Shown one piece after another: positions 89 through 56,999 of a stretch of 64,000 bases of DNA. Numbering within the stretch: position 1 is the first letter of the stretch; each line of letters opens with the position of its first letter. Below the pieces are notes generated by a model. That model searched no databases and was not told where the DNA came from. It was given only the letters and a program-made list of their open reading frames with translations. The stretch is from Spizellomyces punctatus DAOM BR117. Taxonomy: Eukaryota. The stretch is from NCBI GenBank assembly GCA_000182565.2, contig KQ257460.1; one strand, 5' to 3'. A program made the position numbers and the translations under genes.

Positions 89-375
89 GCTGATGGACGT
101 TCTTTTGGGTAGAAAGACTAGAGTTGCTTAAAACCTTTATTAATCTTGAACAGTGCCAGATAAAAAGGGATGGCGGACAAGGCTTTTCCCTTTTGAAATC
201 ATCTGGTCTGGTCGCGTCACTCGTTGAGGATTTCACACCTTTTTGTTGAGGGGGTTTGCGTGCGCGTTTGGCGGTGCTTGCGAGATATCTGTTTTTTTTT
301 ACACATTCCGATAGCAAAAACCTTTTTTGACGGAAAGTATATCGGGAGGGTAAGAGTATATTCCGCAACAAACAT

Positions 376-1337
376 GCACCACAAAGAATACACCCGGCAT
401 TCCACAACCTCCCACCACACAACACCATCCAATACATCCCTCTCATACTCGCATTCCCATCCCCTCCTATCACTCCAAATTGACCCAACATACATCTCGG
501 ACGCCTCAATGCCATCCACGATCCTCCCAGAAGATATCATGGTGGGCGTGGATGCTCCCCCGGAGGGTACATACGCGCCATTCTTCTCCCCCGAAAAAAG
601 TGAACCCACTAGATCATTCCGACAGAGTGTAACGAGTGTCGCGAGTTGTCCCAGTACGATGCACTGGAGTGATACGAGTGACTGTGAGGAGGATTTGGAG
701 GTGTTGATGAGGAGGGTTGAGGAAGCTTTAGGAGGCCAAGAAGATGCTGAGGCGAGTTTGTTGTTGAAGGTTCAACAGGTGTTGAGTTTTAGTGATGAGA
801 GTCGACGTGATGGATTGGGGGATGAGGGTTTGGATATACCCAATATGGATCTTTTACCGAATGATACGTACCTATCACCGGCATCCAATACCGTTCATTC
901 TGAGAGTCAATCCAACGTGAAGACGACTCGCTCAGCACTCGACAGCCAGCACCACAACCGTTGAAGAATACCAATCCCCCCTCAGTCCAAACCGCCCCAA
1001 CAACACATATCAAGTCCCAAAAATCGAATACGAATCCTTTATGGCTGACGACGATACCATTGTCGAGGTACCACCACATCACAACTCTATACCCTTTACT
1101 CATACTAATAATGTTAAAACACAGAGAGCACTTGCACCCCTCTTTGCTAAATACGCCCCCTCTCTCATCCCACTACGCTCAGAAGACACCACAAGCGTAT
1201 CCACGACATCCACCTATGGGGATCTATCGATGGCGAGTTTGGAGTATTTGAGACGGTATGGGTTAGGAGAACAGAGTCGGGTGTTGGATGTTGAGAGGAT
1301 TCGGAGGTTACCGAAATTGGGTATGCCGGGTATGTGA
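376..1337 (+). CDS. STIL/Ana2/SAS-5-like centriole assembly protein (putative; 2 exons, start uncertain)
   Basis: C-terminus has VPKIEYES...LFAKY...GDLSMASLEYLRRYGL (STAN-like) and VLDVERIRRLPKL (TIM-like), with a helical segment EEDLEVLMRRVEEAL upstream. ORFs 224-964 and 1041-1337 join in frame through a GT-AG intron 868-949. Confidence 0.6.
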
Positions 1338-2279
1338 ATGGGGTGTTTGGTGGTTTTGTATTGTATATTCTTTTCTTTTTTTTATTGAAAGTGTAATTTG
1401 TGATGGGTTCTGGTGGATGGGTTAGATTTGTAAGGACATTGTTATCGTACATACATCAATAGATGGTATGTATTTCTTCAAGAAACATCCACCTTATGTT
1501 AAGCTCCCTGTCTGCATACTACATACAGGGTCGTGTGCAAGTGTGTGCGTGCAGGAAAATGTGTGGGACTTGTGCTTTGGGCGACATTTGAAATCACATC
1601 TATTGACACTCTTACAGTTTCCTGTTCAATATAGAGTAATTTTACTATCCAATTGGTGCCTAGACGAAACTACGTCTTGACAAAAGCGATATCTGGCCTG
1701 GTGCAGACGGCGAGTACACATAAAGCTTCCAACGGTAGATTTGAATCAAGCAGAGTGGCTACCGTCAAGTGGTATGTCAGTTTTGGAGAGATGGATGGAG
1801 ATGTCCATTGGGGTCCGTTTTAAGAATGGATGTGAAAACCGTTCTTGTTGATTTTGAGGCCAATGGAGTAGGCGGCAAGGCCATTATCAGTCATTTTGAA
1901 ATTCTTGGAGTATGGTGATTGTGACGGGTCCGATGGCAGGAGATGGTCCAGCGTTCGGAGGTCATTGACAAACAACAGCAATCAAGATTCCATTGGTTTC
2001 GTTCGTAATATGTGCAGTCATCTGCCGTGATTTGTGCGAAATTGTGGTTTTGGATCGTTTTTTGGGGCCAGATGAGGAGATTTGTCGCGGAGGAGGGACG
2101 GAAGATGCATGCAACTGAGAGTAGTTTCTCGCCTACGAAGAAGTGCCTGCACAATTGCGCATCAATGAAACTGATGAGTCTTTCTTTGAGAAATACATCA
2201 AACTTTGATGCCCCGCCAATCCTAGCCCTGCTAATCCATCAACCAGCTTTAAAAACTTCTGACCTTTACAGAAACCTAA

Positions 2280-3480
2280 AATTCGGTTCTGCCGCCAAAT
2301 GTGACGTATATGCCGCGGAATGGAGAAAAGTCCACCCTCGCCGAGTTTCGCGGAAGACGGCAAAACTAGTCGATCAAGAAAAGTTCCTAGGCAGAAAACT
2401 CATCTCCTGCTGCATGGTATATAAAGTCAAACGAGCTGCCGACAACTCGATTCAATGCCACAAAGCCCGAGTTGTCTTTTGTGGACTTTTGTAGAAAGAC
2501 GACATTGACTATGATGGAATGTGCCAGTGTGATGAATCCTTTTTTTGCATATGCAGTCAGCAGAGGTTTTCACGTTTTATCTACTTGACGATCGCCATTT
2601 CTGGACTTGGAGCTGAATGAAAAGAATGTTTACAGTACCAGACGCCTATGGCAAAACCTTTTTCAACCCTAACTGCAAAAGGGGGAGATGCTCCTGCAGA
2701 AAAGCTCTTTACGGCCTCCCGGTATTGGAACAACAACCTTTACAAAACGCTCTTTGGTAGAAAAAGATTCAAAATTACAATTTGAGAGGAATCATGGCAG
2801 ACGACTTGCCTATCGAAGAAAAAAAGTACTGAAATCATGATTGCCGTAGTTGTAGATGATCTTCATTGCTCGCCCCGCCTGTTGCCATCGGACGTATCAA
2901 AGCTACGCTTTTTTCAAGAACTCAAAATAACTGATGATGGCATTGCTGACTACTACATCGCCCTCGAAATCATCAACAAAACATTGTTTTTTACATCCAG
3001 CAAAACTGGATATTGACAATCTCGCAAAAAACGCTCGTTTGAGGGATTCAAAAGTCGCGCATCATGGGACATCTCGACACAATACTTTAAAAAACAGAAC
3101 TTGCTGACACTTGACGCTTAAACGTTTCTGCTTGGTTTCAAACCTATCGGCAAGCTTCATATGGTTTGCAAAACCCGATATCGCATTCATTATCCTAGCT
3201 CGCTTACGTGTCTTGCCCCACTGAGAAACATTCTGACAATGCTATACTCTTTCTACGCTACCTCAAAGTCACAAGAAGACTTGGATTGCACTACCCCACG
3301 ACTGGCGGATGGGTATTATAGTTTTTCTGGATTCCGACTATGCTACTGATGTCGATACTCGCCAATACCCGTTTCCTCACTTGTGAAAAACCGCTATTTC
3401 CTGGTCTTTTAGTCAACAACGCACCATCGTCTTATCCATCATAGTAGTTGAATATATGAATGTGACTACCCCTGCCCAAA
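2280..3480 (+). mobile_element. Decayed Ty1/copia LTR-retrotransposon pol remnant (RT/RNase H)
   Basis: CMVYKVKRAADNSIQCHKARVVFCG (~2410-2485) matches copia RT W-V-Y-K-x-K...KARLVA. AISWS.SQQRTIVLS..VVEY (~3394-3456) matches copia RNase H. Many stops and frameshifts; may extend to a DGEY integrase-like bit near 1705; no LTRs seen. Confidence 0.75.
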
Positions 3481-4603
3481 AAGACCATTCATGTCTAGTT
3501 CACTTTCCCAAAAGTATACGTGAACACTCCCAATCTATCCTCACGTGACCAATACCGATAGCAAAGGCGTGGGGGCAAAAACGTAACACGTCACCAGGAT
3601 GCATGGTTTGTGATGGTTCTTATTCATTGCGCATCCACTTTGCGCATTCTACGAACAAATACGGTCCGACACATGTCTACACAGCCCTCACCAACGATCC
3701 AGCATTTAAAAGATGAGATATCGTACACGCGGTATCTTTCTATATGGAATCGCATAGTGCGGTACCCCGATAACCGTATAATAGAATGGTAAAAATAGTG
3801 ATCTGTAGTGGATGGCGTGATTGGGTATTGATGTGGATGTAGGGATGTAGTTGGACATGATGTTCCTAATCCGTGTTTTTCGGTGACGTTTCCTTTTGAT
3901 ACGATAAATGTAAGTTGCATGACAAATGGCAACTTAGAATGTAATGTTCATTTTGGGGGTTTTGTTTAGAAAACGACCACAATGGTATGTGAATATGCAC
4001 AAGGGCCACATGAACGAATGTATAGTTTTGCTGCGGGGGGTTATGATAAATCCAAACATGCCACGTACGTAAAACCCCAAAAAGAGAGTTGAATTGGCAA
4101 GTTTTAAATGTTTAATGGGTTTGTTTTTTAGGATATTGGATACCGCTCAACAGGAATTATCAGAGGAAGCGAGATTAACGGGTGGGAAATGGGTTTGGTT
4201 GTTGGAAAAGGAGCATGAAGGGATTAGTGAGGTAAAAGAGACGAAATGTTTTGAGTAATGTTGAGGGAGGATTGACATGTTTTATATTGTAGTTGAAGTG
4301 GTCACGAAATCGGTTTATGCCGTTTTTGGTGTTGGATCCCGTTGTGGATAACCAACCTCTTTCACGAGACGCCGAAGGTAAACCCCCCCCCCCCCCCCCC
4401 CCCAAAAAAAAACCCTCATAAGTTTGAAAATATTAATAATTTTTTTTTTTTTTGGAGACGATTGGCAACATTCAGAATCGGTTGACACCCCCAACAAATG
4501 ACCGTATTGCCCAAGGCCAAGTGCTGGTACTGACGGTTCACTACCTATGGAGGACGGTGGTGGGGTTATAAGAAGGAAGATTGTTGGAAAACACTTAAAA
4601 AAG

Positions 4604-5359
4604 NNNNNNNNNNNNNNNNNNNNNNNNNNNNNNNNNNNNNNNNNNNNNNNNNNNNNNNNNNNNNNNNNNNNNNNNNNNNNNNNNNNNNNNNNNNNNNNNN
4701 NNNNNNNNNNNNNNNNNNNNNNNNNNNNNNNNNNNNNNNNNNNNNNNNNNNNNNNNNNNNNNNNNNNNNNNNNNNNNNNNNNNNNNNNNNNNNNNNNNNN
4801 NNNNNNNNNNNNNNNNNNNNNNNNNNNNNNNNNNNNNNNNNNNNNNNNNNNNNNNNNNNNNNNNNNNNNNNNNNNNNNNNNNNNNNNNNNNNNNNNNNNN
4901 NNNNNNNNNNNNNNNNNNNNNNNNNNNNNNNNNNNNNNNNNNNNNNNNNNNNNNNNNNNNNNNNNNNNNNNNNNNNNNNNNNNNNNNNNNNNNNNNNNNN
5001 NNNNNNNNNNNNNNNNNNNNNNNNNNNNNNNNNNNNNNNNNNNNNNNNNNNNNNNNNNNNNNNNNNNNNNNNNNNNNNNNNNNNNNNNNNNNNNNNNNNN
5101 NNNNNNNNNNNNNNNNNNNNNNNNNNNNNNNNNNNNNNNNNNNNNNNNNNNNNNNNNNNNNNNNNNNNNNNNNNNNNNNNNNNNNNNNNNNNNNNNNNNN
5201 NNNNNNNNNNNNNNNNNNNNNNNNNNNNNNNNNNNNNNNNNNNNNNNNNNNNNNNNNNNNNNNNNNNNNNNNNNNNNNNNNNNNNNNNNNNNNNNNNNNN
5301 NNNNNNNNNNNNNNNNNNNNNNNNNNNNNNNNNNNNNNNNNNNNNNNNNNNNNNNNNNN
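4604..5359. other. Assembly gap (N run)
   Basis: Continuous N bases. Confidence 1.
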
Positions 5360-5634
5360 CAATTATCCAAAAAAACATAATCTACACAAAATGTACAAAC
5401 GACATCTCCCAAATGTACAACAAAAACTAAAATCGCATTCTTTTAACCCTATCCTCTTTTTTGTTATTTTCTCGTTTACTTTTTCTCTTCTAAGTTGTTT
5501 TGTTTGGAAGGAGGGGGAACCTGCCCCCAATTCCAAAAACAAAAAAAGCGCCGTATATAAATCTTTCCCCTTTTGTTTTTAACTCGACAGTGAACAATGT
5601 TTTTGTTTAGACGGGGATTGAACCAGGGAAGACA

Positions 5635-6935
5635 TCAATTCCCGTTTCCTCCGTTTCCGTTTCCGTTAATGTTTACGTTTCCGTTTGAGGATCCTGAACT
5701 GAGGATGGTGATTCCGTCTCGGTTTCGGTCATTGTTGTTATTGTTGCTGTTGCGGTTGTTATTGTTGCCGCCGCTAAGGTCAATGACGCGGTTGGGGAGG
5801 TTATCGTTGATGAAAATGTTGTTGTTGTTGTTGTTCCGGTTACGGTCGTTGTTGTTGTTGTTGTTACGGTTACGGTCGTTGTTGTTGTTGTTGTTGTTGT
5901 TCCGGTTACGGTCATTGTTGTTGTTACGGTTACGGTCGTTCCTGTTACGGTTGTTGTTATTGTCGAAAATGTCGCCTAGGTCGATAATGATTACGTTGTC
6001 GTTGTTGTTGTTGCGGTTACGGTCGTTTAGCGTTACGGTCATTGTTGCGAAAGTCGCTCATTGTTGCGAAAGTCGCTGGTTGTTGTGTTTTGGGTTTCGG
6101 TGGTGTTGAGGTTTACGTTCAGGTTCAGGTCAGTGCTGTTGTCCTGTCGTTTTCGGATCTGTTGGGTATTGTTACGCCCATTGTTGTTGTTGCCGTTCCG
6201 GTTGTTGTTGTTGGCGTTGTTGGTGTTGTTAGCGTTGTTGTTACCGTTGTTCTCGTTGTTATTTCCATTACGGTTGTTGTTGTTACCATTGTTCTCGTTG
6301 TTATTTCCATTACGGTTGTTGTTGTTACCGTTGTTCTCGTTGTTATTGCCATTACGGTTGTTGTTGTTGTGGTTACCGTTGTTATTGCGGTTGTTGTTGT
6401 TACGGTTACGGTTGTTGTTGTTCACATCACCAAAGATGATGACACCAATGTTGTTGCCGTTTCTGGTAATCTGGTCAATAACGTCACGTAGCTCGTTCTG
6501 GTTGTTGCCAACATTGATGAAAATGTCATCGTTGTTGTTGTTCCGGTTATTATTGTTGTTGTTCCGGTTGTTGTTGTTGTTGTTGTTGTTGTTCCGGTTG
6601 TTGTCGTTGATGTTGTTATTTCTGACATTGGTATTCCGGTTGTTGTTGTTTCCGTTATTGTTGTTGCGATTGCCATTGTTGCCGTTTTCGCCAATGACAA
6701 GTTCAGCCACCTCTGGGGCGACGACCTGCCTCCTTGTCACCTTTGGTGGAGCAAATGTTTTTGCAATCTGGACGACGTTGGCAGTATAGACCGGAGGGAC
6801 TTGACCAGAAGCTTGCCTCGGTGGAAAACTGACAGCGCGTGTGCCATCGCGAGCCTCCAATTGAACGGGAACTGCAGATACGACGGACGTGCTTGCCAAA
6901 CAGAGGCACATCCATGCCACCAAAGACGACTTCAT
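5635..6935 (-). CDS. Secreted Asn-rich low-complexity protein (frame broken near 6030-6077)
   Basis: Signal peptide MKSSLVAWMCLCLASTSVVSAVP at ATG 6935, long poly-Asn/NR repeats and dibasic sites RR|Q and KR|Q. The same composition continues in ORF 5635-6042 after a frame break. Confidence 0.7.
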
Positions 6936-7589
6936 TGTTGTTGTGGTTGTGGGTGGTTCTTGTGTGGTTGGATGGTGTTGTGTATAGTGATGCGTAGGGA
7001 AAAAAAATAAAAGTGCCAAGCACAAGATGCTACAATGGAATAAGTTGCTTTTCAAGAAGCAAAAGAAAGCCTGCAAATAACGGGGAAGTCGCTCGTTGCC
7101 TCTCTGAATTTATATCCCAAAAAGCTTAAAAAAAAAAGAAACGGGGCGAAAGAATAAGGCCGTTGCATCACGATCAAACTACCCTTTGAAATCTCTGAAA
7201 TTGTAACAAGTTAAAGAGGTGTGTGTCAAATAAAAAAGACCCTTGTGTATGAAATGTATGTATTATATATCGGTGCTATATAAAGCGGGAGAGTGTGAAA
7301 TGGAACACCTCCCTAGTAAAATGTTTTAGAATGATTAAAACACGCGGTATAAACCATGTGTTGATTGGATTTGACATGAAATGAAACTCTAGGGTCTCTC
7401 TTTTGCAGAGTGAAATAATATGGGTTGAAATGAGGAACCCTGTGTTTTAAAAGTATTTGAAGCGAGAGGGGGTGATTACTCTGGCACAGCCAACAAAAAG
7501 AGAGAGATGGAGAGAAACGAAATGAGGGTGATGAAATGAGGGGTATGAAATGAAAAAGGCCATGCTGAGCAAAAGTGGTTAAAAATCCA

Positions 7590-8346: not shown

Positions 8347-9777
8347 ATGAAGACTCGCTTACTACTCGCACTCGGATGCATTCTCTTGCACTCGGCATTG
8401 GCACAATTCCCAGACCCCTCCATCGAGTACGGCTATGCCCTCATTTACAACTCTCAGCCACTCACCCACGACACCCTGGGCGCGACAAGCAATAGTCAAA
8501 AGAACTCGCCCCTCGTTATTGGCATCTTTTCAAATGCCCCTGCAGTAAAGGGCGATATCGTGCCGTTTGCTGGAATGCCTTTGCCTGGGGACAATGCAGA
8601 GGTATCTTTCGGCTGATTTGTTTTTCCCTTTAAAAAAACGATATTCATGTTTGTATGCTTTGCATTTGTTGAATAGGGCCTGCTGATTCACTATAATGAC
8701 GGATGCACACCCGCCCCAAACATTAGCCTTCCTCTCGATAAGCCAACTAATCGATTTGTCGGGCTCTTGAATGCAACCAGTCCCGTCGCTCCCTGCCCCT
8801 TTCCTCAGCGCATTACAGATACCATCACCCATCTCAAAGCTCACAATGGCGTCGGGCTCGTTGTGTACGGCGACGGAAGGCATCCCGTTATCCGGTCCGC
8901 CATCACCGCTTCTTGGCCCACTGAATTCGCTTTGCCAACCTATTTCATAGACATGGGACTGGGTGGATTCTTGGAAAATTTCATGGGCTCCACCGTCAAT
9001 GGAAGCGAGTTCAAGTTTGGCCCAGATCAGAGCGTGCCGCTAGTGGTTGGCCAGCCCTTTCCCCCCAATTTCCCTCTCCCCGCCCAACAACAGCTGGTCA
9101 ATATCATGGTGAGAATTGCCCTCCGCCGCGGCTCCCAATCCCCCTTTCCCCCTCTCTGGAAATTTGCCCTTGTTTCCCTCGCCATCTTTACCGGTCTGTC
9201 TATCCCTGCCGCCTACTTTTTACGACGCCGCGCCGCGCGGCAACTCCGCGGCCCTCTCCCCGGCCAACCGCCCGCGCCCACCCTCCTTTCAGCCTCCCAC
9301 CTCCAACACCATCCGCTGGTCGTCTTTGGCGACCTCCCTGATGCCGCCACAATAGATCCAACCTGCTCCATTTGCCTGGACGTGTACAGTCCCACGACCA
9401 TGGTCCGCAAACTCGTCCCCTGCGGACACGTCTTTCACCCGTCGTGCGTCGATCGATGGGTCACGGAAGTAGCGGGCGTATGTCCCCTCTGTCGCGTGGA
9501 TCTGGTTGGCAAAGGAGCGGAACAAGTTGTACCCGTGCGGTGGTGGACGCGCGTTTGGCGCAAGCTGACGAGACGCAATGGGACGCCAACTGCCGTGGAT
9601 GTGGAATTGCAGAGCGTCGCTATCCTTCCTACTGCTGGTCCGGGCTCGAATGGAACGGCGATACCCGGGACCGTGAACGACCATGTCGACCATGGTGAAA
9701 ACGCTAATGTGCATGTGGACCATGAACCGACACCCCCACCCCCGGCTGTCACTGCGTTACGGGACCCACCTGTATAA
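8347..9777 (+). CDS. PA-TM-RING (RNF13/GRAIL-type) RING-H2 E3 ubiquitin ligase
   Basis: Signal peptide; PA-like segment (CPFPQRITD...GVGLVVY...LPTYFID); TM helix; RING-H2 CSICLD...CGHVFHPSCVDRW...CPLCR; in-frame phase-0 intron 8602-8676. Confidence 0.88.
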
Positions 9778-30948: not shown

Positions 30949-33117
30949 ATGGAAGGTCGCGCTGAGCAAAACAGTTGTGCCTCGTTTCTACTGGAAGACA
31001 TTTTACTCTTCACCACGGCGATGGGCACAGCGGTTGACCTTCATCAGTCAACGTCACTCTTTGAGGAGGTGAAAAGCTTTACTGCACCTCTAGACGTAAT
31101 GACGAGCGACAACGGAGGGAACGAGGGCCAATCGAAGGCGGAGGGTAACAGCAAGGAAGTTATGAATTCTGGTATGGAACCTTAGGCATAATCTAATGAA
31201 ATAATGCAGAGGAACACTGGGATAACCTGTTCTTCCGTCGACTGTCATTGTAAAAGTTCCTGGTTCTGTTGTGGCAGAAGCGTCAAAGCCCGCCGGTCCC
31301 GTTATCAAGCCTCGTACCACCAGTCTAAAGTCACAACCCGAAGAGCCCGTACGAAGTACTTCACCGGAACCAACTTCCTGGACCGCATTTATCAGGAATC
31401 GAGCCAGCCTTCTGGGCCTCGGTAGCTCGAACGACCGAAAATATGACATCAGCTCAGAGTCGGATGATGATTTAGGGTATCCAGGTCTTACCTCACCTTC
31501 ACGGCGCAGACACGAAAAGGGTAACCACACTGAGAGGATTCTCTCTGATCTTGACGAGGAGTCAGTCGAATTTCTGCTGTCAAGGCTAGATATTGAAAAT
31601 CAAGCGCTGGCGCTGAATCCCAAGACCATCTATGTTGAAGGAGGGAACATTCGGGGACACCAGCCTACGCTACAGGCTCTAACAGTAAGCCTAACCCACT
31701 ATTCAACAAAACCCCCTGGTCCAGCTCAAGAACAAGATGAAGCCGATATCGATTTTTGGAACTCTATCATCGAAGATTATGCGTCCACCTTACATAAGAT
31801 ACCGCACTTACTCACGGCAAGAGTGCGTGCTGGCATACCTCCACATTTACGAGCAAAGATCTGGACCATCATGTCCGGAGCACAAAAGGACCGCTTCGAT
31901 TCCTTATATCCATTACTCTTGAAGCAGGATAGTCCTTTCGACAGAATCATAAGACGGGATATCCCGAGGACATTTCCAAAATTAGACATGTTCAAAGAGG
32001 AAGGGGGCGAGGGACAGCGGAAGCTTTACCAGCTTTTGAAAGCTTATAGTATCTACGACGCCGAAGTAGGATATTGTCAAGGCCTCAGCTTCGTTGTTGG
32101 ACCACTACTGATGCAAGATGTAAGACCGTGTGCTTGAATGGATGCCTTGCAGCAGATTTTTCATGGGAAACTAATCCAGAAAGCGGAACTAAACAGATGT
32201 CGGAAACCGAAGCTTTTGCGGTTTTGGTACGGCTAATGGAAGACAAACCACCTGCGGCTAAATCTGCAAGCAATGGCAACCATCACCCTCACCGTGCTTA
32301 CGCCCTTCGGACACTGTTTACCCCAGATATGTCTGGCTTACATCAAATGCTGTATCAACATTCCGAGTTAGTGCGGGAGCATCTTCCTGATCTGTATGGG
32401 CACTTCCAAGAGCATGGCGTTACCGCAACCATGTACGCCTCACAATGGTTCCTCACACTTTATACATATCATTTCCCGCTTCCTTTGGTATTCCGGATTT
32501 TTGATATTATCTTTGCGGAGGGGGCCGTTGAAACAATGCTCCGATTCAGTATAGCCATTCTGAAGCGGAATCAGTTGCGGCTTCTTGAGGAGTCCGAATT
32601 CGAGAACATTTTGGAGATTCTCAAAGGAGATAGACTTTACGAAGTCTATCAGGACGATCCAGAAGCGGTGGTCAGAGATGCCATGGAGGTACAAGACATC
32701 GTCAGTGAGAGGAAGCTGGAAGGTCTCCGTCAAAGGTAGGGCGATGATCGAGTTTCTAAGCCGCTGGAATTTGCTCACTCCAAACATTTTAGCTACACCG
32801 AAGAACAGCGCAAAAGGGCGGCAACGATGTCGGATGCAGAGTTAGTGGCTCTTCAAGCCTTGATAAGGCAGCTTCGCGCCGAGACTTCGCGCCACCAGCA
32901 GTCATTAACTGAAATGGGTAGGGAAAATGACCGCCTTTCAAAGGACAATCAAAACCTGCGAGCAAAGTTGGTAGAGGCAGAGAAGGGGATTGAGGAGAAG
33001 GAGGAGGAATGCAAGCAGCTAAGGCTCAGGCTGAAAGAGCTGGAATCAACAGTCAATCCGCCTCAGGATTCTGATGTGACCAACGATGCACCGATTGAAA
33101 GTAGCGATAGCGCATAA
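30949..33117 (+). CDS. TBC-domain Rab GAP (Gyp5/EVI5-like) with C-terminal coiled coil
   Basis: GIPPHLRAKIW, IRRDIPRTFP, GYCQGLSF, MYASQWFLTLY; start and first intron (31172-31277) inferred. Confidence 0.9.
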
Positions 33118-36726: not shown

Positions 36727-36901
36727 CTTTACTGGAGAACTTATTTCACATTGAGAACCTGCGGTTTCGGACAGAACTCCGGACAGACTCGGATTGTTCA
36801 CGTGATGGAACTGGCTATGACAAACTGTTGCCATGGCACGGCCTTTTCGGTGAGAAACACTTCATGCCGCGTTGGTGGTTGCCAGATACCGCACAGCAGC
36901 G

Positions 36902-38128
36902 ATGTCGCCGCCGATGGTTTTCGTGGCAGCGAGGTGTGGAGGACGGCCAATATTAACGTCCTTTGGTCAGAGACCACCGCAACTGATACGGCGGCAGCTG
37001 GTTCATTCCCTGACCACACCTTTGATCCCCAAACCTTGCGCACATTTCCCGCGAACGTCCACCCTCCGAAGTATCCCACTTTTCATACCAAATGCCATCT
37101 TGCAAGTTCGCCATCGCACTTATCGCAAGAAGATAACCAAGCCTCAAAAGCGATATTTTAAATGGGTGGAACGCTTGAAGGCGGAAGGTCTCGAACCACC
37201 AAAGGTCGAGCGTCCTGTAATGGAAAATCGCTTCTGGAAAGTAGTGGGAAATATGAAGATTTACAAGCCCGTATCGCCAGGGTCACGTAACCGTCGGCAT
37301 CCTACCCGGTTTCATCTTTGGCGTGGAGGTTGTATTCAGCGTCTGTCGTACGGCAAGCGATCCACTGGTGGAAGGAACAACACTGGGAAGATCACAGTTC
37401 GCCATCGTGGTGGAGGGCACAAGAAGCGCGTGAGAATGATTGATTTCCATCGTACTACTCCCGGGCCACACGAGGTTGTTCGTTTGGAGTACGACCCCAA
37501 CCGAAGCGCTGAACTCGCCCTGCTACGAAATCTGTCTACCAATGAGTTCAGTTACATCATTCGCCCGGCTGATGTGAACCCAGGCGATATTGTGCAATCA
37601 TGGCGGGAGGGAATTCCCCAACCTGCTGCCGGGGAGGATCCTATCCCTAAAAACCAAATGATTAAAAAGGGAAACTGTCTCATGCTCAAGGACATCCCGG
37701 TCGGTACGGAGATTCACTGCATAGGCCTGAAGGCGGATGGACCTGCAAAGCTTTGTCGATCTGCTGGAGCATCAGGGCAACTTCTCTTCGCCGGTCAAGA
37801 AGGAATGGCCCAAGTTCGGCTTTCCAGCAAGGAAGTTCGTCTCATTCCTGTGGACGCATGTGCGACCATTGGTGTAGTAGGCAACGAGGCCCATCAACAT
37901 CGTAACTGGGGCAAAGCTGGTGCACGTAGGCGAAAGGGGATTAGGCCTACTGTTCGTGGTATTGCGATGAGTCCTGTGGATCATCCTCACGGAGGTGGCG
38001 GTAAAAGTAAGGGCGGCAAGGATCCGAGGAGTCCTTGGGGTTGGAAAACAAAGGGATGGAAGACCGTTCGTAGAAAGAAGTGGTATGTTGTGAAGACGAA
38101 GCGGGAGGCGAAATTGGGTCGCTCTTGA
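36902..38128 (+). CDS. RML2: Mitochondrial ribosomal protein uL2m
   Basis: GGRNNTGKITVRHRGGGHK, EYDPNRSA, RPTVRGIAMSPVDHPHGGG; Arg-rich N-terminal presequence; intronless. Confidence 0.95.
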   Translation: MSPPMVFVAARCGGRPILTSFGQRPPQLIRRQLVHSLTTPLIPKPCAHFPRTSTLRSIPLFIPNAILQVRHRTYRKKITKPQKRYFKWVERLKAEGLEPPKVERPVMENRFWKVVGNMKIYKPVSPGSRNRRHPTRFHLWRGGCIQRLSYGKRSTGGRNNTGKITVRHRGGGHKKRVRMIDFHRTTPGPHEVVRLEYDPNRSAELALLRNLSTNEFSYIIRPADVNPGDIVQSWREGIPQPAAGEDPIPKNQMIKKGNCLMLKDIPVGTEIHCIGLKADGPAKLCRSAGASGQLLFAGQEGMAQVRLSSKEVRLIPVDACATIGVVGNEAHQHRNWGKAGARRRKGIRPTVRGIAMSPVDHPHGGGGKSKGGKDPRSPWGWKTKGWKTVRRKKWYVVKTKREAKLGRS

Positions 38129-47381: not shown

Positions 47382-47453
47382 GCAACCATAGTGCAGTGGT
47401 TAACATACCTGCCTTCCAAGCAGGTGGCCCGGGTTCGAATCCCGGTGGTTGCA
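47382..47453 (+). tRNA. tRNA-Gly(TCC)
   Basis: 72-nt cloverleaf GCAACCA...TGGTTGCA; anticodon arm CCTGC-CTTCCAA-GCAGG; GTTCGAATC T-loop. Confidence 0.95.
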
Positions 47454-54652: not shown

Positions 54653-55520
54653 CCTTACAGCGCTTGAATGACTTTGCTCGCTACAAAGAGATACGGGAAG
54701 AAGGTGCGTTTGAGCGAATATATAGAAAAACAGCGACTTGACAAGGCCTAGTTTGATATTTGCTAACTCAGGCTTTGCTGCGTTTTAATGGCAAATCTGG
54801 CGCGCAGCATCCCCAAAAATAAGTTTGCAGGGGATAATGAAATCTAAATCTTTGAAATCCATTGTCATCGAACGCCTCCCGCGTGAACAGCGACAAGATC
54901 CCAGTCTGCCGGAGGTGCTGCGCGAGGGCCTTTCGATCGGCTTGGAGCAAGCCTCGTTCGGCGCGGCAAGGACTCATCCTTTCATAACCATATGACTGCC
55001 AGAACTCTGAATAGTTGAGATCCTTGATGTTGTTGACGGTGACCGATACTCGGCAATAAATCGCTGGAAAACATTGGAAATGATCCTACACTCCCATGTC
55101 ATGCTACACCGCCTTTGTTCAAGCTAAACATTGCACAAACTTCCACATGCATGTTTACCATTAGTTTCGACATTGTGGCGGGAGAAGCCCAAGCAGGCGT
55201 TCGTAAGATGGACTACATGAAGATTGAACTTTTCAAGTTTATACAAATTGGATTTCTGTGATCAGCAGGGGGTTTTAGGAAGATAGCTACTTATAGACAT
55301 TTTATTCAGCACACAGTCTTTCGTTAATACATGTGTGATAGCCCAAGTCACTTTTTCGGGTGTCAATTCAGATTTCCAGGATCCCTCCGTTCCATCTCAA
55401 GTAGGTGAATGAATAGTAACGCGTGCGGCCTTTGTCGCGCTCTTGTTCATTGAACACTCGAACCTCTGTACCCGACTGCTAGAAAGCCCATGTTCATATC
55501 CTTCGATTCGTACCTTTACC

Positions 55521-56798
55521 ATGACGGCCATGTTTCCCGGGCGGATCACTTTGGCTCTTACTTTGCACCGCGCGACCAATTTACCAAAGACAGATCGTAT
55601 CGGACACATCGACCCATACGTCAAAGTCAGTTTCCAGTCTACGCAATGTAAATCCCAGAAGTCTAGCGCACTCTCCGATACCCCTGATCCGGTCTGGAAC
55701 GAGAAACTTATATTCAACCTGGAGGAAGCGGTGGTGACCGGTGGGCACACGGTGATGCTCGAGATCTACGACGAGGACACCTTCAGAGATGAACGCGTGG
55801 GGTTTGTAGAAGTGACGGTGACAAGAGAACTCTTTGGGGTGGTCGCTGGGAAGGCTATCAGGCATCAGTTTCCAATCACCTATGTGAAAAGCAAGCACAA
55901 CACTCTTGCGCAATCGTACTTGGAGGTTAGCTTCTCATGCGTGTATTCCTACGATACGGTCGCTCGTTGGGTTCAAAATAACATTCCGGCTTCGGTATGC
56001 AATTTCATGGACAAAAGGCTATACGTACCCTTCCCGCCTGAGTGGCATGGTTTGCTATTGGGACTGGAATTTGAAAATGGAGGCGATAAGATTGATTTCA
56101 AAGTGTTTACAACTATACCCGATGAGGGCACGTATGTGGATCTCGCTCTCACATCCGAGCCAAAATCACGTATCCGTCGACGGGGAACCGTTACTGGTGA
56201 ACCAACTCCTATCAAAGGGACGCATCTTAGATATTATGAAGAAGTAAAATTAGATGATGTTCCCATCGAAATGGATTGGAATATGGTTGCCGTATGGAAA
56301 TTCAAAAAGTCTTCAGTCGAAAGCATAGATTTGGCGAAAATTGTACAAGCCCACGGATGGAAGGGCACTCTGAGCTACCAAGCAGCTTCCCAGATTCTTC
56401 AGGGAGTCGAACTTGACCCCCAAGATGAAACTATTTACTTCCCGTTACCTTCCCAATACACCTTCACCACGGAGGATTTAATCGAACCGTCTTCTTTTGT
56501 CCTCGTCGACTGGGACAAAAACAATTGTGATATGAAGATCCTTGTCCTTGATACGCCGTCCAATGCTGGCGTCGGCTACGATCTCAGTATTACCGGAGTC
56601 GAATACAATAAGAAAACCTCGGATGTGTATGTTCCCCCACGCCCAATCTTGGGGGGCCGGTACCGGGCAACTAGGCGAGTGGAATTGGATGATGTTCCTT
56701 ACGGAGTTCCTTTGACCAATATAAAATGGGAGAAGCTGAGACTGGAGGAAGGGAAAGAGCTACGAGTGGGTCAGTTCATTAAGCTGACCCCGTGGTAA
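55521..56798 (+). CDS. C2-domain protein with duplicated C-terminal module
   Basis: RATNLPKTDRIGHIDPYVKV...PVWNE...EIYDEDTFRDERVG (Ca-binding Asp residues present); intronless. Confidence 0.85.
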   Translation: MTAMFPGRITLALTLHRATNLPKTDRIGHIDPYVKVSFQSTQCKSQKSSALSDTPDPVWNEKLIFNLEEAVVTGGHTVMLEIYDEDTFRDERVGFVEVTVTRELFGVVAGKAIRHQFPITYVKSKHNTLAQSYLEVSFSCVYSYDTVARWVQNNIPASVCNFMDKRLYVPFPPEWHGLLLGLEFENGGDKIDFKVFTTIPDEGTYVDLALTSEPKSRIRRRGTVTGEPTPIKGTHLRYYEEVKLDDVPIEMDWNMVAVWKFKKSSVESIDLAKIVQAHGWKGTLSYQAASQILQGVELDPQDETIYFPLPSQYTFTTEDLIEPSSFVLVDWDKNNCDMKILVLDTPSNAGVGYDLSITGVEYNKKTSDVYVPPRPILGGRYRATRRVELDDVPYGVPLTNIKWEKLRLEEGKELRVGQFIKLTPW

Positions 56799-56927: not shown

Positions 56928-56999
56928 TTCCGCATCGGGGAATCGAACCCCGGCCGCCGCGGTGAGAGCGCGGAATCCTAACCACTGGACCAATGCGGA
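56928..56999 (-). tRNA. tRNA-Glu(CTC)
   Basis: Reverse complement TCCGCATTGGTCCAGTGGTTAGGATTCCGCGCTCTCACCGCGG...GTTCGATTCCCCGATGCGGAA. Confidence 0.95.

What the first reader, a model, noticed from the sequence alone, without database searches (positions are those of the whole stretch)
376..1337. Candidate fungal STIL/Ana2/SAS-5 centriole-assembly protein
Seen: the C-terminus reads VPKIEYES...LFAKY...DLSMASLEYLRRYGL...VLDVERIRRLPKL, with a short helical segment upstream. Known: animal STIL/Ana2 end with the STAN motif (S-x-A-[ST]-x-x-Y-[LM]-x-[KR]-YGL, which binds SAS-6 after Plk4 phosphorylation) followed by the TIM motif (LD-x-x-x-[LI]R-x-x-PKL). This family is mostly described from animals. 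Inference: this is a compact, Ana2-sized orthologue in a flagellated fungus, which would place the STIL-SAS-6 module before the animal-fungal split. The ORF track splits the gene in two, so it is easy to miss.
Basis: partly seen in the sequence, partly recalled or inferred. Interest (0 to 1): 0.8.

Follow-up and report, generated by a model that had tools for sequence, protein, structure and literature searches.

The report
Compact chytrid STIL/Ana2 centriole-assembly gene
This small gene of a flagellated (chytrid) fungus encodes a stripped-down relative of the animal centriole-duplication protein STIL/Ana2, with the SAS-6-binding STAN and TIM motifs intact, and the stored gene model cuts it short.

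Summary
The + strand at 374-1337 encodes one protein of about 262-283 aa. Its C-terminal half holds all three STAN sub-blocks (VPKIEYESF; DDDT..LFAKY; DLSMASLEYLRRYGL), followed by a terminal TIM motif (VLDVERIRRLPKL).

A profile of 7 chytrid homologues, run against 1.84 billion proteins, found 72 hits at E<=1e-3. They include C-terminal fragments of bona fide animal STIL, with E down to 6e-12. Profile-profile comparison gives 97-99% probability (P 4e-11 to 4e-16), and reversed and shuffled controls fail. The three residues critical in human STIL (S1061, S1116, T1119) align to T, S and S.

The N-terminal STIL_N domain, the PRxxPxP CPAP-binding motif and the Pfam STIL coiled coil are not detectable. 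The protein is therefore Ana2/SAS-5-like in build, not STIL-like.

The stored model (196 aa, 374-964) is truncated. Intron 2 (1068-1124) is conserved across chytrids. The boundaries of intron 1 remain ambiguous (868-922, 868-949 or 868-985), and no RNA data were found.

A chytrid STIL candidate is already listed in print (Ito 2019), but under a different B. dendrobatidis accession. I rate this a new member of a known kind, of moderate interest. Function is inferred: PLK4-primed SAS-6 recruitment.

The parts
374..867 (+). Exon 1 (ATG 374). Mostly disordered N-terminal half carrying the family motifs listed below.
   Evidence: It has the same start (MHHKEYTRH) as the Spizellomyces sp. 'palustris' model P0003 and the stored 196-aa model P0017.
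458..478 (+). N-terminal family motif HPLLSLQ (residues 29-35)
   Evidence: Conserved in the chytrid alignments. No counterpart was found in STIL.
554..601 (+). Proline-rich family motif APPEGTYAPFFSPEKS (residues 61-76)
   Evidence: Family consensus PPxGxYxPFFSPxKS. Local pLDDT rises to 73. It is not a PRxxPxP motif (read against Cottee 2013).
680..799 (+). Helix-turn-helix: two copies of an LLx[RK]VxE[AV]L-type helix (residues 103-120 and 125-142)
   Evidence: AlphaFold2 helices. V115, L119 and L130 are invariant in 17 sequences. There is a weak collinear match to a YxxLLxQVxxxL motif upstream of STAN in animal STIL, P=0.06 on its own.
845..871 (+). Family block MDLLPNDTY, equivalent to (I/L)DxSLADGTY in relatives. 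It overlaps the candidate donor at 868.
868..949 (+). Candidate intron 1 (GTACCT...CAG). The acceptor is ambiguous: 922, 949 and 985 all restore the frame.
   Evidence: The donor resembles that of intron 2 (GTACCA). No RNA evidence was found. The closest relative's model reads this stretch through, and in other frames.
950..1067 (+). It holds STAN sub-block 1, VPKIEYESF (1014-1040), and DDDTIVE (1047-1067). The T codon at 1056-1058 aligns with human STIL S1061.
   Evidence: Ohta 2014 passages
1068..1124 (+). Intron 2: 57 nt, phase 0, GTACCA...ACTAAT...CAG, open in frame
   Evidence: Homologue gene models join E directly to RALAPL. Seven records read E-V... and then stop within 37 residues, six of them within 15, and one record ends at the E.
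1125..1337 (+). Exon 3 with the stop codon (1335-1337). It holds RALAPLFAKY (1125-1154), the STAN core DLSMASLEYLRRYGL (1221-1265; S 1227-1229 and S 1236-1238 align with human S1116 and T1119), and TIM VLDVERIRRLPKL (1281-1319).
   Evidence: Short helices are predicted over MASLEYLRR and VERIRR, with block-mean pLDDT 73-80.

Best explanation
The locus is one three-exon gene of a Spizellomyces-like chytrid. It encodes a compact member (about 262-283 aa) of the STIL/Ana2/SAS-5 family of centriole cartwheel-assembly factors.

Shown here: homology of its C-terminal part to the STAN motif and TIM motif of animal STIL, with the residues that are critical in human STIL conserved.

Inferred from the animal proteins:
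- The protein is recruited to the mother centriole or basal body.
- The chytrid PLK4 phosphorylates the STAN serines and threonine: T in DDDT, and the two S in DLSMAS.
- The phosphorylated STAN then binds SAS-6.
- The terminal TIM helix contacts the SAS-6 coiled coil, as reported for SAS-5.
- Together these seed the ninefold cartwheel of new centrioles before zoospore formation.

Also inferred: the two conserved central helices probably provide self-association, the role of the Ana2/SAS-5 coiled coil. The fungus-specific N-terminal motifs (HPLLSLQ, PPxGxYxPFFSP) probably dock another partner, SAS-4/CPAP or PLK4, in place of the animal PRxxPxP motif.
For: (1) Family. Searches found homologues that carry all blocks in one chain, in Spizellomycetales, Rhizophlyctidales and Entophlyctis.

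(2) Library search. A profile of 7 of them against 1.84e9 representatives gave 72 hits at E<=1e-3. Of the 66 new hits, 29 match one of 38 STIL_N-bearing STILs by BLASTP at E<1e-3, 20 of them at E<1e-8. Nearly all of these matches lie in the C-terminal quarter of the STIL. For example, P0050 is 93% identical to Stylophora STIL residues 1055-1307 and has profile E 1.3e-5. P0034 is 51% identical to the same region and has profile E 3.1e-9.

(3) Identity of the animal hits. An alignment of 18 such fragments retrieved 38 proteins, all with precomputed PF15253 and most named SCL-interrupting locus/STIL. Pfam confirmed STIL_N on all three tested and CC_STIL above its cut-off on two of them; the coral protein scored 21.3 bits against a cut-off of 22.

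(4) Profile-profile comparison.
- 13 fungal sequences against the last 420 aa of 34 named STILs: 97.2%, P 3.8e-11, 343 columns.
- Against full-length STIL: 96.2%, P 2.1e-9, with only the C-terminal part aligned.
- Controls: reversed alignment scores 19.6 (P 0.2); five column shuffles score 9.9-18.
- Tool hhalign of A4 against A5: 98.7%, E 4e-16.

(5) Reciprocal search. A STIL C-terminal HMM against 1323 window ORFs gives 921-1334 at E 1.6e-5; the next best is 0.36.

(6) The blocks align in order: PKIEYESF~PR(I/L)NYxS(F/M); DDT~DLS(1061); KY~KYL; DLSMASLEYLRRYGL~NMSFATKKYMKRYGL; LDVERIRRLPKL~LDVKRLRQLPKL at the chain end.

(7) Critical residues. S1061, S1116 and T1119 are the critical STAN sites in human STIL (Ohta 2014 passages). 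Ana2 S318/S365/S370/S373 are the Plk4 sites needed for Sas6 binding (Dzhindzhev 2014 passages).

(8) Partners exist in chytrids. Tagged SAS-6 marks centrioles in S. punctatus (PMC11974727 passages). SAS-6, PLK4 and CPAP candidates are listed for B. dendrobatidis (Ito 2019 source data).

(9) Phyletic pattern. 24 of the 25 named fungal taxa I looked up are zoosporic.
Against: - Direct scores of the chytrid profile on full-length named STILs are modest. The best is 37 bits (E 2e-4 at library size). Only 3 of 38 fall under E 0.01, and mammalian STILs score 15-16 bits.
- Pfam, PDB sequences and the ESM Atlas gave nothing.
- The alignable part is short and sits within disordered sequence. The 18 animal fragments used were themselves picked from hits of the chytrid profile.
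- No STIL_N, CR2/PRxxPxP or CC_STIL is detectable.
- There is no expression evidence, and the exon 1-exon 2 junction is unresolved.
- The published B. dendrobatidis STIL candidate (EGF76849) is not the family's B. dendrobatidis member found here (EGF84215/OAJ36913).
- One homologue is labelled Endogone, a non-flagellate.
- SAS-6 and PLK4 could not be sought in this genome.
- No binding or localisation was tested.
Confidence: 0.82

Rival explanations
1. The real chytrid orthologue of STIL is another protein, such as the B. dendrobatidis candidate EGF76849 listed by Ito et al. 2019. This family would then be a paralogue or a separate STAN/TIM-bearing protein with a different role.
For: The published accession differs from the B. 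dendrobatidis member of this family. All 6 members of that cluster were read, and none is EGF76849. The family has no STIL_N, CR2 or CC_STIL.
Against: STAN plus TIM are what define the STIL/Ana2/SAS-5 family (Hirono 2014 passages), and both are present in order. Among the hits I could name, the library-wide profile search returned one B. dendrobatidis cluster only. Only 30 of the 72 hits were looked up by name. Ana2 and SAS-5 are accepted members without a STIL_N domain (that they lack it is recalled, not tested).
Confidence: 0.08
2. The gene is decaying in this genome, or mis-assembled. The frame changes between exon 1 and the STAN exon would then be real frameshifts or homopolymer errors, not an intron.
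For: The stored model stops at 964. The closest relative's model reads 868-1013 straight through. Its residues match window frame 2 up to about 935, then frame 1, then frame 0 from 1014, so the two genomes differ by two frame-shifting indels (frames read by me). No RNA run was found.
Against: The STAN/TIM reading frame is intact. Its last 70 residues are 97% identical to the relative's. Several GT-AG introns restore the frame. Donor GTACCT at 868 resembles the donor of the conserved intron 2. The region concerned is an unconserved linker of variable length in the family.
Confidence: 0.07
3. The shared motifs arose by convergence: short linear motifs that bind SAS-6 evolved independently in an unrelated fungal protein.
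For: The matching blocks are short (7-15 residues each) and embedded in disorder. Scores on full-length STILs are modest.
Against: Four to five blocks occur in the same order and at the same end of the protein. These include positions with no known contact role. Coral STIL bridges the two groups, for example with DDTLDE. Shuffled and reversed controls fail.
Confidence: 0.03

Closest known systems
Drosophila Ana2 (anastral spindle 2) and C. elegans SAS-5
   Same: Small proteins without a STIL_N domain (recalled). They have a central helical or coiled-coil segment, a STAN motif near the C terminus that binds SAS-6, and a TIM motif (Stevens 2010 passages; Hirono 2014 passages). Like SAS-5, this protein has no clear PRxxPxP motif (Cottee 2013 passages).
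   Different: This protein is shorter: about 262-283 aa against 420 aa for Ana2. Its helices do not match the Pfam STIL coiled-coil model. It carries fungus-specific N-terminal motifs. I did not fetch any Ana2 or SAS-5 sequence, so no direct comparison was made.
Vertebrate and cnidarian STIL (SCL-interrupting locus protein; Pfam PF15253 STIL_N, PF25775 CC_STIL)
   Same: The STAN sub-blocks and terminal TIM are collinear. The critical S1061, S1116 and T1119 positions are kept as T, S and S. There is a possible shared YxxLLx(Q/R)Vxxx(L) helix upstream of STAN (weak).
   Different: STIL is about 1200-1600 aa with a 400-aa STIL_N domain, a CR2 PRxxPxP motif and a defined coiled coil. None of these is detectable here.
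Published chytrid STIL candidate (B. dendrobatidis EGF76849; Ito et al. 2019, Fig. 1 source data)
   Same: The same claim: chytrids keep a STIL orthologue together with SAS-6, CPAP, CEP135 and PLK4.
   Different: The accession differs from this family's B. dendrobatidis member, EGF84215/OAJ36913. I could not fetch EGF76849, so its relation to this family is unknown.

Membership tests
STIL/Ana2/SAS-5 family | STAN motif (about 90 aa near the C terminus; Stevens 2010) | tested here: met
   All sub-blocks align to the STAN region of STIL_N-bearing STILs. Library search E down to 6e-12 on STIL C-terminal fragments. hhalign 97-99%. Reciprocal HMM E 1.6e-5.
STIL/Ana2/SAS-5 family | TIM motif at the extreme C terminus | tested here: met
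   VLDVERIRRLPKL, 5 residues from the stop codon, aligns to the chain-terminal (I/F)LDxxRL(K/R)xLPKL of STILs.
STIL/Ana2/SAS-5 family | Phosphorylatable residues at the critical STAN sites (human S1061, S1116, T1119; Ana2 S318, S370, S373) | tested here: met
   T (1056-1058), S (1227-1229) and S (1236-1238) sit at the aligned positions (sites). Phosphorylation itself cannot be tested here. The human numbering is carried over from a bat STIL by an offset of 4-5, which is an inference.
STIL/Ana2/SAS-5 family | Central coiled coil that self-associates and, in STIL, binds PLK4 PB3 | tested here: inconclusive
   Two conserved helices are predicted at residues 103-120 and 125-142. There is no Pfam CC_STIL match and no match to the STIL coiled-coil region. 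The self-association test was not available.
STIL/Ana2/SAS-5 family | PRxxPxP motif that binds the CPAP/SAS-4 TCP domain (Cottee 2013) | tested here: not met
   No PRxxPxP in the exon 1 translation (read by eye). No hhalign or HMM match to the STIL CR2 region. Cottee 2013 also found no such motif in SAS-5, so it is not universal in the family.
STIL sensu stricto (Pfam PF15253 STIL_N) | N-terminal STIL_N domain | tested here: not met
   No Pfam family at E<=10 on the window's products or at E<=1 on two full-length chytrid homologues. An HMM of the first 800 aa of STIL scores 5.2 bits or less on all other session proteins.
STIL/Ana2/SAS-5 family | Binds SAS-6, localises to the procentriole, and is required for centriole duplication | not testable with these tools
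S. punctatus has transformation tools and a SAS-6 reporter strain.
STIL/Ana2/SAS-5 family | Co-occurrence with SAS-6 and PLK4 in the genome, and absence from fungi without centrioles | tested here: inconclusive
   The window's own genome is not held. From the literature, SAS-6 is at S. punctatus centrioles and B. dendrobatidis has SAS-6 and PLK4 candidates. Of the 25 named fungal taxa with hits, 24 are zoosporic. The exception is Endogone sp. FLAS-F59071, whose protein lacks the STAN core.

The most novel reading that the evidence does not exclude
The chytrid proteins show the minimal ancestral opisthokont STIL: a protein of roughly 260-700 aa without STIL_N.

On this reading the SAS-4/CPAP or PLK4 docking role is played by fungus-specific N-terminal motifs (HPLLSLQ, PPxGxYxPFFSP) instead of PRxxPxP. 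The doubled LLx[RK]VxE[AV]L helix would be homologous to an undescribed YxxLLxQVxxxL helix that lies about 130-170 residues upstream of STAN in animal STIL.

It would also follow that the fungal STIL listed in the literature for B. dendrobatidis is a different protein, so the true fungal orthologue was missed. A degenerate copy without the STAN core would survive in non-flagellated Endogonales.
Probability: 0.25. Interest if true: 0.6.

Novelty: new member of a known kind. Interest (0 to 1): 0.5.

Why it matters
STIL/Ana2 is the least conserved of the core centriole-duplication proteins, and nearly all that is known about it comes from animals.

This is a clear fungal member with the STAN phosphosites and TIM intact. 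It is only about 270 residues long and sits in a chytrid lineage that can be transformed and already has a SAS-6 reporter. [quoted passage not shown]

It also corrects a truncated gene model. It defines a profile that finds the family across chytrid orders and in one Neocallimastigomycota species (Piromyces finnis). And it flags a mismatch with the accession published for B. dendrobatidis.

The general conclusion, that chytrids keep the animal centriole-assembly set, is already in print. The gain is one of detail rather than principle.

Tried and rejected
- Pfam on the window's products and on chytrid homologues: no family.
- PDB sequence searches with the protein and with the family profile: only chance hits (E 0.43, 1.4) or none.
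- ESM Atlas with the last 70 residues: no usable hit.
- RNA evidence: no RNA holder was listed. The single run found (X1, kind unknown) gave one contig over 200-773 with no joints. The splice pattern therefore stays untested.
- Own genome: not held, so SAS-6 and PLK4 could not be sought there.
- Earlier findings of this scan: nothing by place or by sequence.
- Carvalho-Santos 2010 and Hodges 2010, the classical surveys of centriole proteins, are not held. What they say about STIL in chytrids is not checked.
- Pachinger 2025 surveyed STIL/ANA2 across opisthokonts. The result is in a figure I could not see, and its tables give no fungal STIL accession.
- A full-text search for 'STAN motif' + STIL + fungi found 0 papers. 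Searches for the two B. dendrobatidis accessions and the locus tag found 0 papers.
- N-terminal half against full-length STIL: P 0.06, not significant.
- I suspected a decayed copia-like element at about 1750-3100 from reading ORFs. Pfam found nothing on five ORFs there, so I dropped the idea.
Full report
**What is there**

On the + strand an ATG at 374 opens a frame that runs to a stop at 962-964. A second frame is open from 921 to the stop at 1335-1337. It reads VPKIEYESFMADDDTIVE, then 19 residues, then RALAPLFAKY...DLSMASLEYLRRYGLGEQSRVLDVERIRRLPKLGMPGM.

The ORF list shows the two halves as separate ORFs. The protein collection holds a 196-aa product identical to 374-964, flagged as the window's own. 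The current model therefore lacks the whole C-terminal half.

Regexes for the STAN core and for TIM each hit once in six frames, side by side. In 200 shuffles of the window they hit 0 and 2 times.

**One gene, and its family**

A search with the C-terminal ORF found four longer proteins. All are from Spizellomycetales chytrids. The best is from Spizellomyces sp. 'palustris' (77% identity over the query, 303 aa), and it starts with the same MHHKEYTRH as the window's ATG.

These proteins, and further ones from Rhizophlyctis and Entophlyctis, carry the same blocks in one chain and in one order:
- HPLLSLQ
- PSDxSxPS
- PPxGxYxPFFSPxKS
- two helices of the type LLx(R/K)VxE(A/V)L
- (I/L)DxSLADGTY
- (V/F)P(K/R)IEYESF
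- DD(T/S)xxE-RALAPLLAKY
- DQLSxASLEYxxRxxL
- a terminal RVLDVERIRRLPKL

The two ORFs of the window are thus halves of one gene.

**Gene structure**

Intron 2 (1068-1124, 57 nt, GTACCA...ACTAAT...CAG) is in frame and open, so it is invisible to an ORF scan. Homologue gene models join E directly to RALAPL. Seven records from other chytrids read E-V... and stop soon after, six of them within 15 residues and one after 37, and one record ends at the E. That pattern is what an unspliced GT donor gives.

Intron 1 is not settled. Donor GTACCT at 868 resembles the donor of intron 2. The products would be 283, 274 or 262 aa.

The palustris model reads this stretch straight through. Its residues match the window's frame 2 up to about 935, then frame 1, then frame 0 from 1014 (my reading). 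The two genomes therefore differ by two frame-shifting indels here. That fits intron or free linker sequence better than constrained coding sequence.

The Y of the conserved ...DGTY block would be lost with donor 868, a small point against it. No RNA run was listed, and the one run laid gave a contig over 200-773 only.

**Is it STIL/Ana2?**

Pfam, PDB sequences and the ESM Atlas gave nothing.

A profile of seven chytrid sequences (A4) was scored against 1.84 billion representative proteins. It found 72 at E<=1e-3, 23 at E<=1e-10 and 13 at E<=1e-30. Six were already known to me and 66 were new.

Many of the new ones are short fragments that match profile positions from about 310 to 468, that is, from the PKIEYES block to the end. 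By BLASTP, 29 of the 66 match one of 38 named STILs at E<1e-3, 20 of them at E<1e-8. Nearly all of these matches lie in the C-terminal quarter of the STIL. Examples:
- P0050: profile E 1.3e-5; 93% identical to Stylophora STIL 1055-1307.
- P0034: profile E 3.1e-9; 51% identical to the same region.
- P0025: profile E 6.2e-12.

The 38 named proteins came from a search with an alignment of 18 such fragments. All 38 carry precomputed PF15253, and most are named SCL-interrupting locus protein or STIL. A Pfam scan confirmed STIL_N on a bat (662 bits), a coral and an annelid protein. CC_STIL passed its cut-off on the bat and the annelid; the coral scored 21.3 bits against a cut-off of 22.

Scored directly on these 38 full-length proteins, the chytrid profile is modest. 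The best is 37 bits (E 2e-4 at library size). Three of 38 fall under E 0.01, and mammals score 15-16 bits.

Profile-profile comparison is clear:
- 13 fungal sequences against the last 420 aa of 34 named STILs: 97.2% probability, P 3.8e-11, 343 columns. I dropped four named STILs beforehand: P0090, P0114, P0103 and P0110, which are biased, short or fused.
- Against full-length STIL: 96.2%, P 2.1e-9, with only the C-terminal part aligned.
- Controls: a reversed STIL alignment scores 19.6 (P 0.2), and five column shuffles score 9.9-18.
- The tool's own hhalign of A4 against the 18 fragments: 98.7%, E 4e-16, 146 columns. Those fragments had been chosen from the profile's own hits, so this figure is not fully independent.
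- In reverse, an HMM of the STIL C-termini against all 1323 stop-to-stop ORFs of the window puts 921-1334 first at E 1.6e-5; the next is 0.36.

**What aligns**

The order is the same in both groups:
- PKIEYESF with PR(I/L)NYxS(F/M).
- DDDT with the VDLS of VDLSMEAN. Coral STIL has DDTLDE, almost the chytrid form.
- LFAKY with ALKYL.
- DLSMASLEYLRRYGL with NMSFATKKYMKRYGL (bat 1109-1124).
- VLDVERIRRLPKL with FLDVKRLRQLPKLF at the very end of STIL.

Stevens 2010 defined STAN as a region of about 90 aa shared by Ana2 and STIL, within the parts that bind SAS-6 (passages). Hirono's review states that the family is recognised by STAN and TIM, and that the SAS-5 TIM domain binds the SAS-6 coiled coil (passages).

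Ohta 2014 found S1061 (epitope NGVDL[pS]MEAN), S1116 and T1119 critical for STIL-SAS-6 binding (passages). Dzhindzhev 2014 found that Plk4 phosphorylates Ana2 S318, S365, S370 and S373, and that this is needed for Sas6 binding (passages).

In the window, T (1056-1058), S (1227-1229) and S (1236-1238) stand at the positions of S1061, S1116 and T1119. I carried the human numbering over from the bat protein by an offset of 4-5, which is an inference.

AlphaFold2 predicts short helices over MASLEYLRR and VERIRR, with block-mean pLDDT 73-80. This suits motifs that fold on a partner.

**What does not align**

The N-terminal half has no counterpart in STIL:
- No STIL_N, no CR2/PRxxPxP and no CC_STIL by Pfam.
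- None by hhalign.

The two central helices (residues 103-120 and 125-142) align weakly with a YxxLLxQVxxxL motif in animal STIL (bat 932) and a second segment after it. The match is collinear with STAN, but P is 0.06 on its own. Whether the helices self-associate could not be tested.

In build the protein is therefore Ana2/SAS-5-like rather than STIL-like. Cottee 2013 also failed to find PRxxPxP in SAS-5 (passages).

**Distribution**

I could name hits from 25 fungal taxa:
- Spizellomycetales: Spizellomyces, Phlyctochytrium, Fimicolochytrium, Borealophlyctis, Geranomyces, Gaertneriomyces.
- Rhizophlyctis.
- Rhizophydiales: two Batrachochytrium species and Boothiomyces.
- Synchytrium.
- Chytridiales and Cladochytriales: Entophlyctis, Rhizoclosmatium, Chytriomyces, Physocladia, Siphonaria, Dinochytrium, Nowakowskiella, Cladochytrium.
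- Piromyces (Neocallimastigomycota).
- One non-flagellate, Endogone sp. FLAS-F59071 (Mucoromycota).

The order assignments above are from my own knowledge. Only Spizellomyces and Endogone were checked against the taxonomy.

The Endogone protein sits on a 5.9-kb contig. It keeps the N-terminal, helix, PRIEYES-KY and TIM blocks but has no STAN core. An unnamed relative, P0047, resembles it. Contamination or a degenerate survivor are both possible.

**What is already known**

Ito et al. 2019 state that animal centriole-biogenesis proteins are found in chytrids. Their Fig. 1 source data list B. dendrobatidis candidates for SAS-6, CEP135, CPAP, PLK4, CEP295 and STIL, the last as EGF76849 by hmmsearch (main-text passages and supplement).

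The family member I find in B. dendrobatidis is EGF84215/OAJ36913. I could not fetch EGF76849.

A preprint shows tagged SAS-6 at centrioles of S. punctatus (passages). Hirono also notes inter-spoke cross-links in the Phlyctochytrium cartwheel about 20 nm from the hub, close to the place where SAS-5 binds the SAS-6 coiled coil.

The principle, that the STIL-SAS-6 module predates the animal-fungal split, is therefore in print. The identity, architecture, motif set and correct gene model of the chytrid protein are, as far as my searches show, not described.

**Verdict**

This is a new, compact member of a known family, mis-annotated as a truncated hypothetical protein. Function at the centriole is inferred from homology and awaits the simple experiments listed under next steps.

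The neighbours in the window are ordinary nuclear genes.

Noticed in passing
window 1068-1124: A 57-nt, phase-0 intron that stays open in frame. Its position, just after the E of DD(T/S)xxE, recurs in several chytrid lineages. Seven records read E-V... and then stop within 37 residues, six of them within 15.
   Followed up: yes
P0024 (Endogone sp. FLAS-F59071, RUS15470) and the unnamed P0047: Homologues attributed to, or resembling, a non-flagellated Mucoromycota fungus. They keep the helix, PRIEYES-KY and (in P0024) TIM blocks but have no STAN core. P0024 lies on a 5.9-kb contig. Contamination has not been excluded.
   Followed up: partly
Ito et al. 2019, Fig. 1 source data, compared with cluster members: The published B. 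dendrobatidis STIL candidate (EGF76849) is a different accession from this family's B. dendrobatidis member (EGF84215 / OAJ36913).
   Followed up: partly
animal STILs, e.g. P0107 residues 932-945, P0104 from 962: A conserved (F/I)Yxx(L/M)(L/M)xQVxxx(L/I) motif lies about 100-170 residues upstream of STAN in the bat, mole-rat and ray STILs shown. It resembles the first chytrid helix (YxxLLxRVxEAL). I know of no description of it (recall only).
   Followed up: partly
P0053 (806 aa, unnamed metagenome record): A low-complexity protein of an unknown eukaryote with a clear STAN core and terminal TIM (profile E 1.9e-5). It has no Pfam family at E<=1 and no match to the N-terminal 800 aa of STIL.
   Followed up: partly
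P0005 (Fimicolochytrium jonesii) and P0045 (Phlyctochytrium bullatum): Probable merged gene models. P0005 carries an N-terminal DHFR domain (precomputed PF00186). P0045 continues into a P-loop GTPase-like region in place of the STAN core and TIM; this was read by eye and not tested.
   Followed up: no
window 4001-6000 and 5817-6665: A stretch of very low G+C (0.258 over 4001-6000), followed by GTT-rich tandem repeats with periods of 3 to 42. On the minus strand these would encode an Asn-rich low-complexity ORF (6039-7076).
   Followed up: no
window 47382-47453 (+) and 56928-56999 (-): tRNA-Gly(TCC) and tRNA-Glu(CTC) genes.
   Followed up: no
window 8767-9777, 31271-32137, 36872-38128, 55443-56798: Ordinary neighbours by Pfam: a RING finger protein, a RabGAP-TBC protein, a ribosomal protein L2 with an N-terminal extension (probably organellar), and a C2-domain protein.
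   Followed up: no
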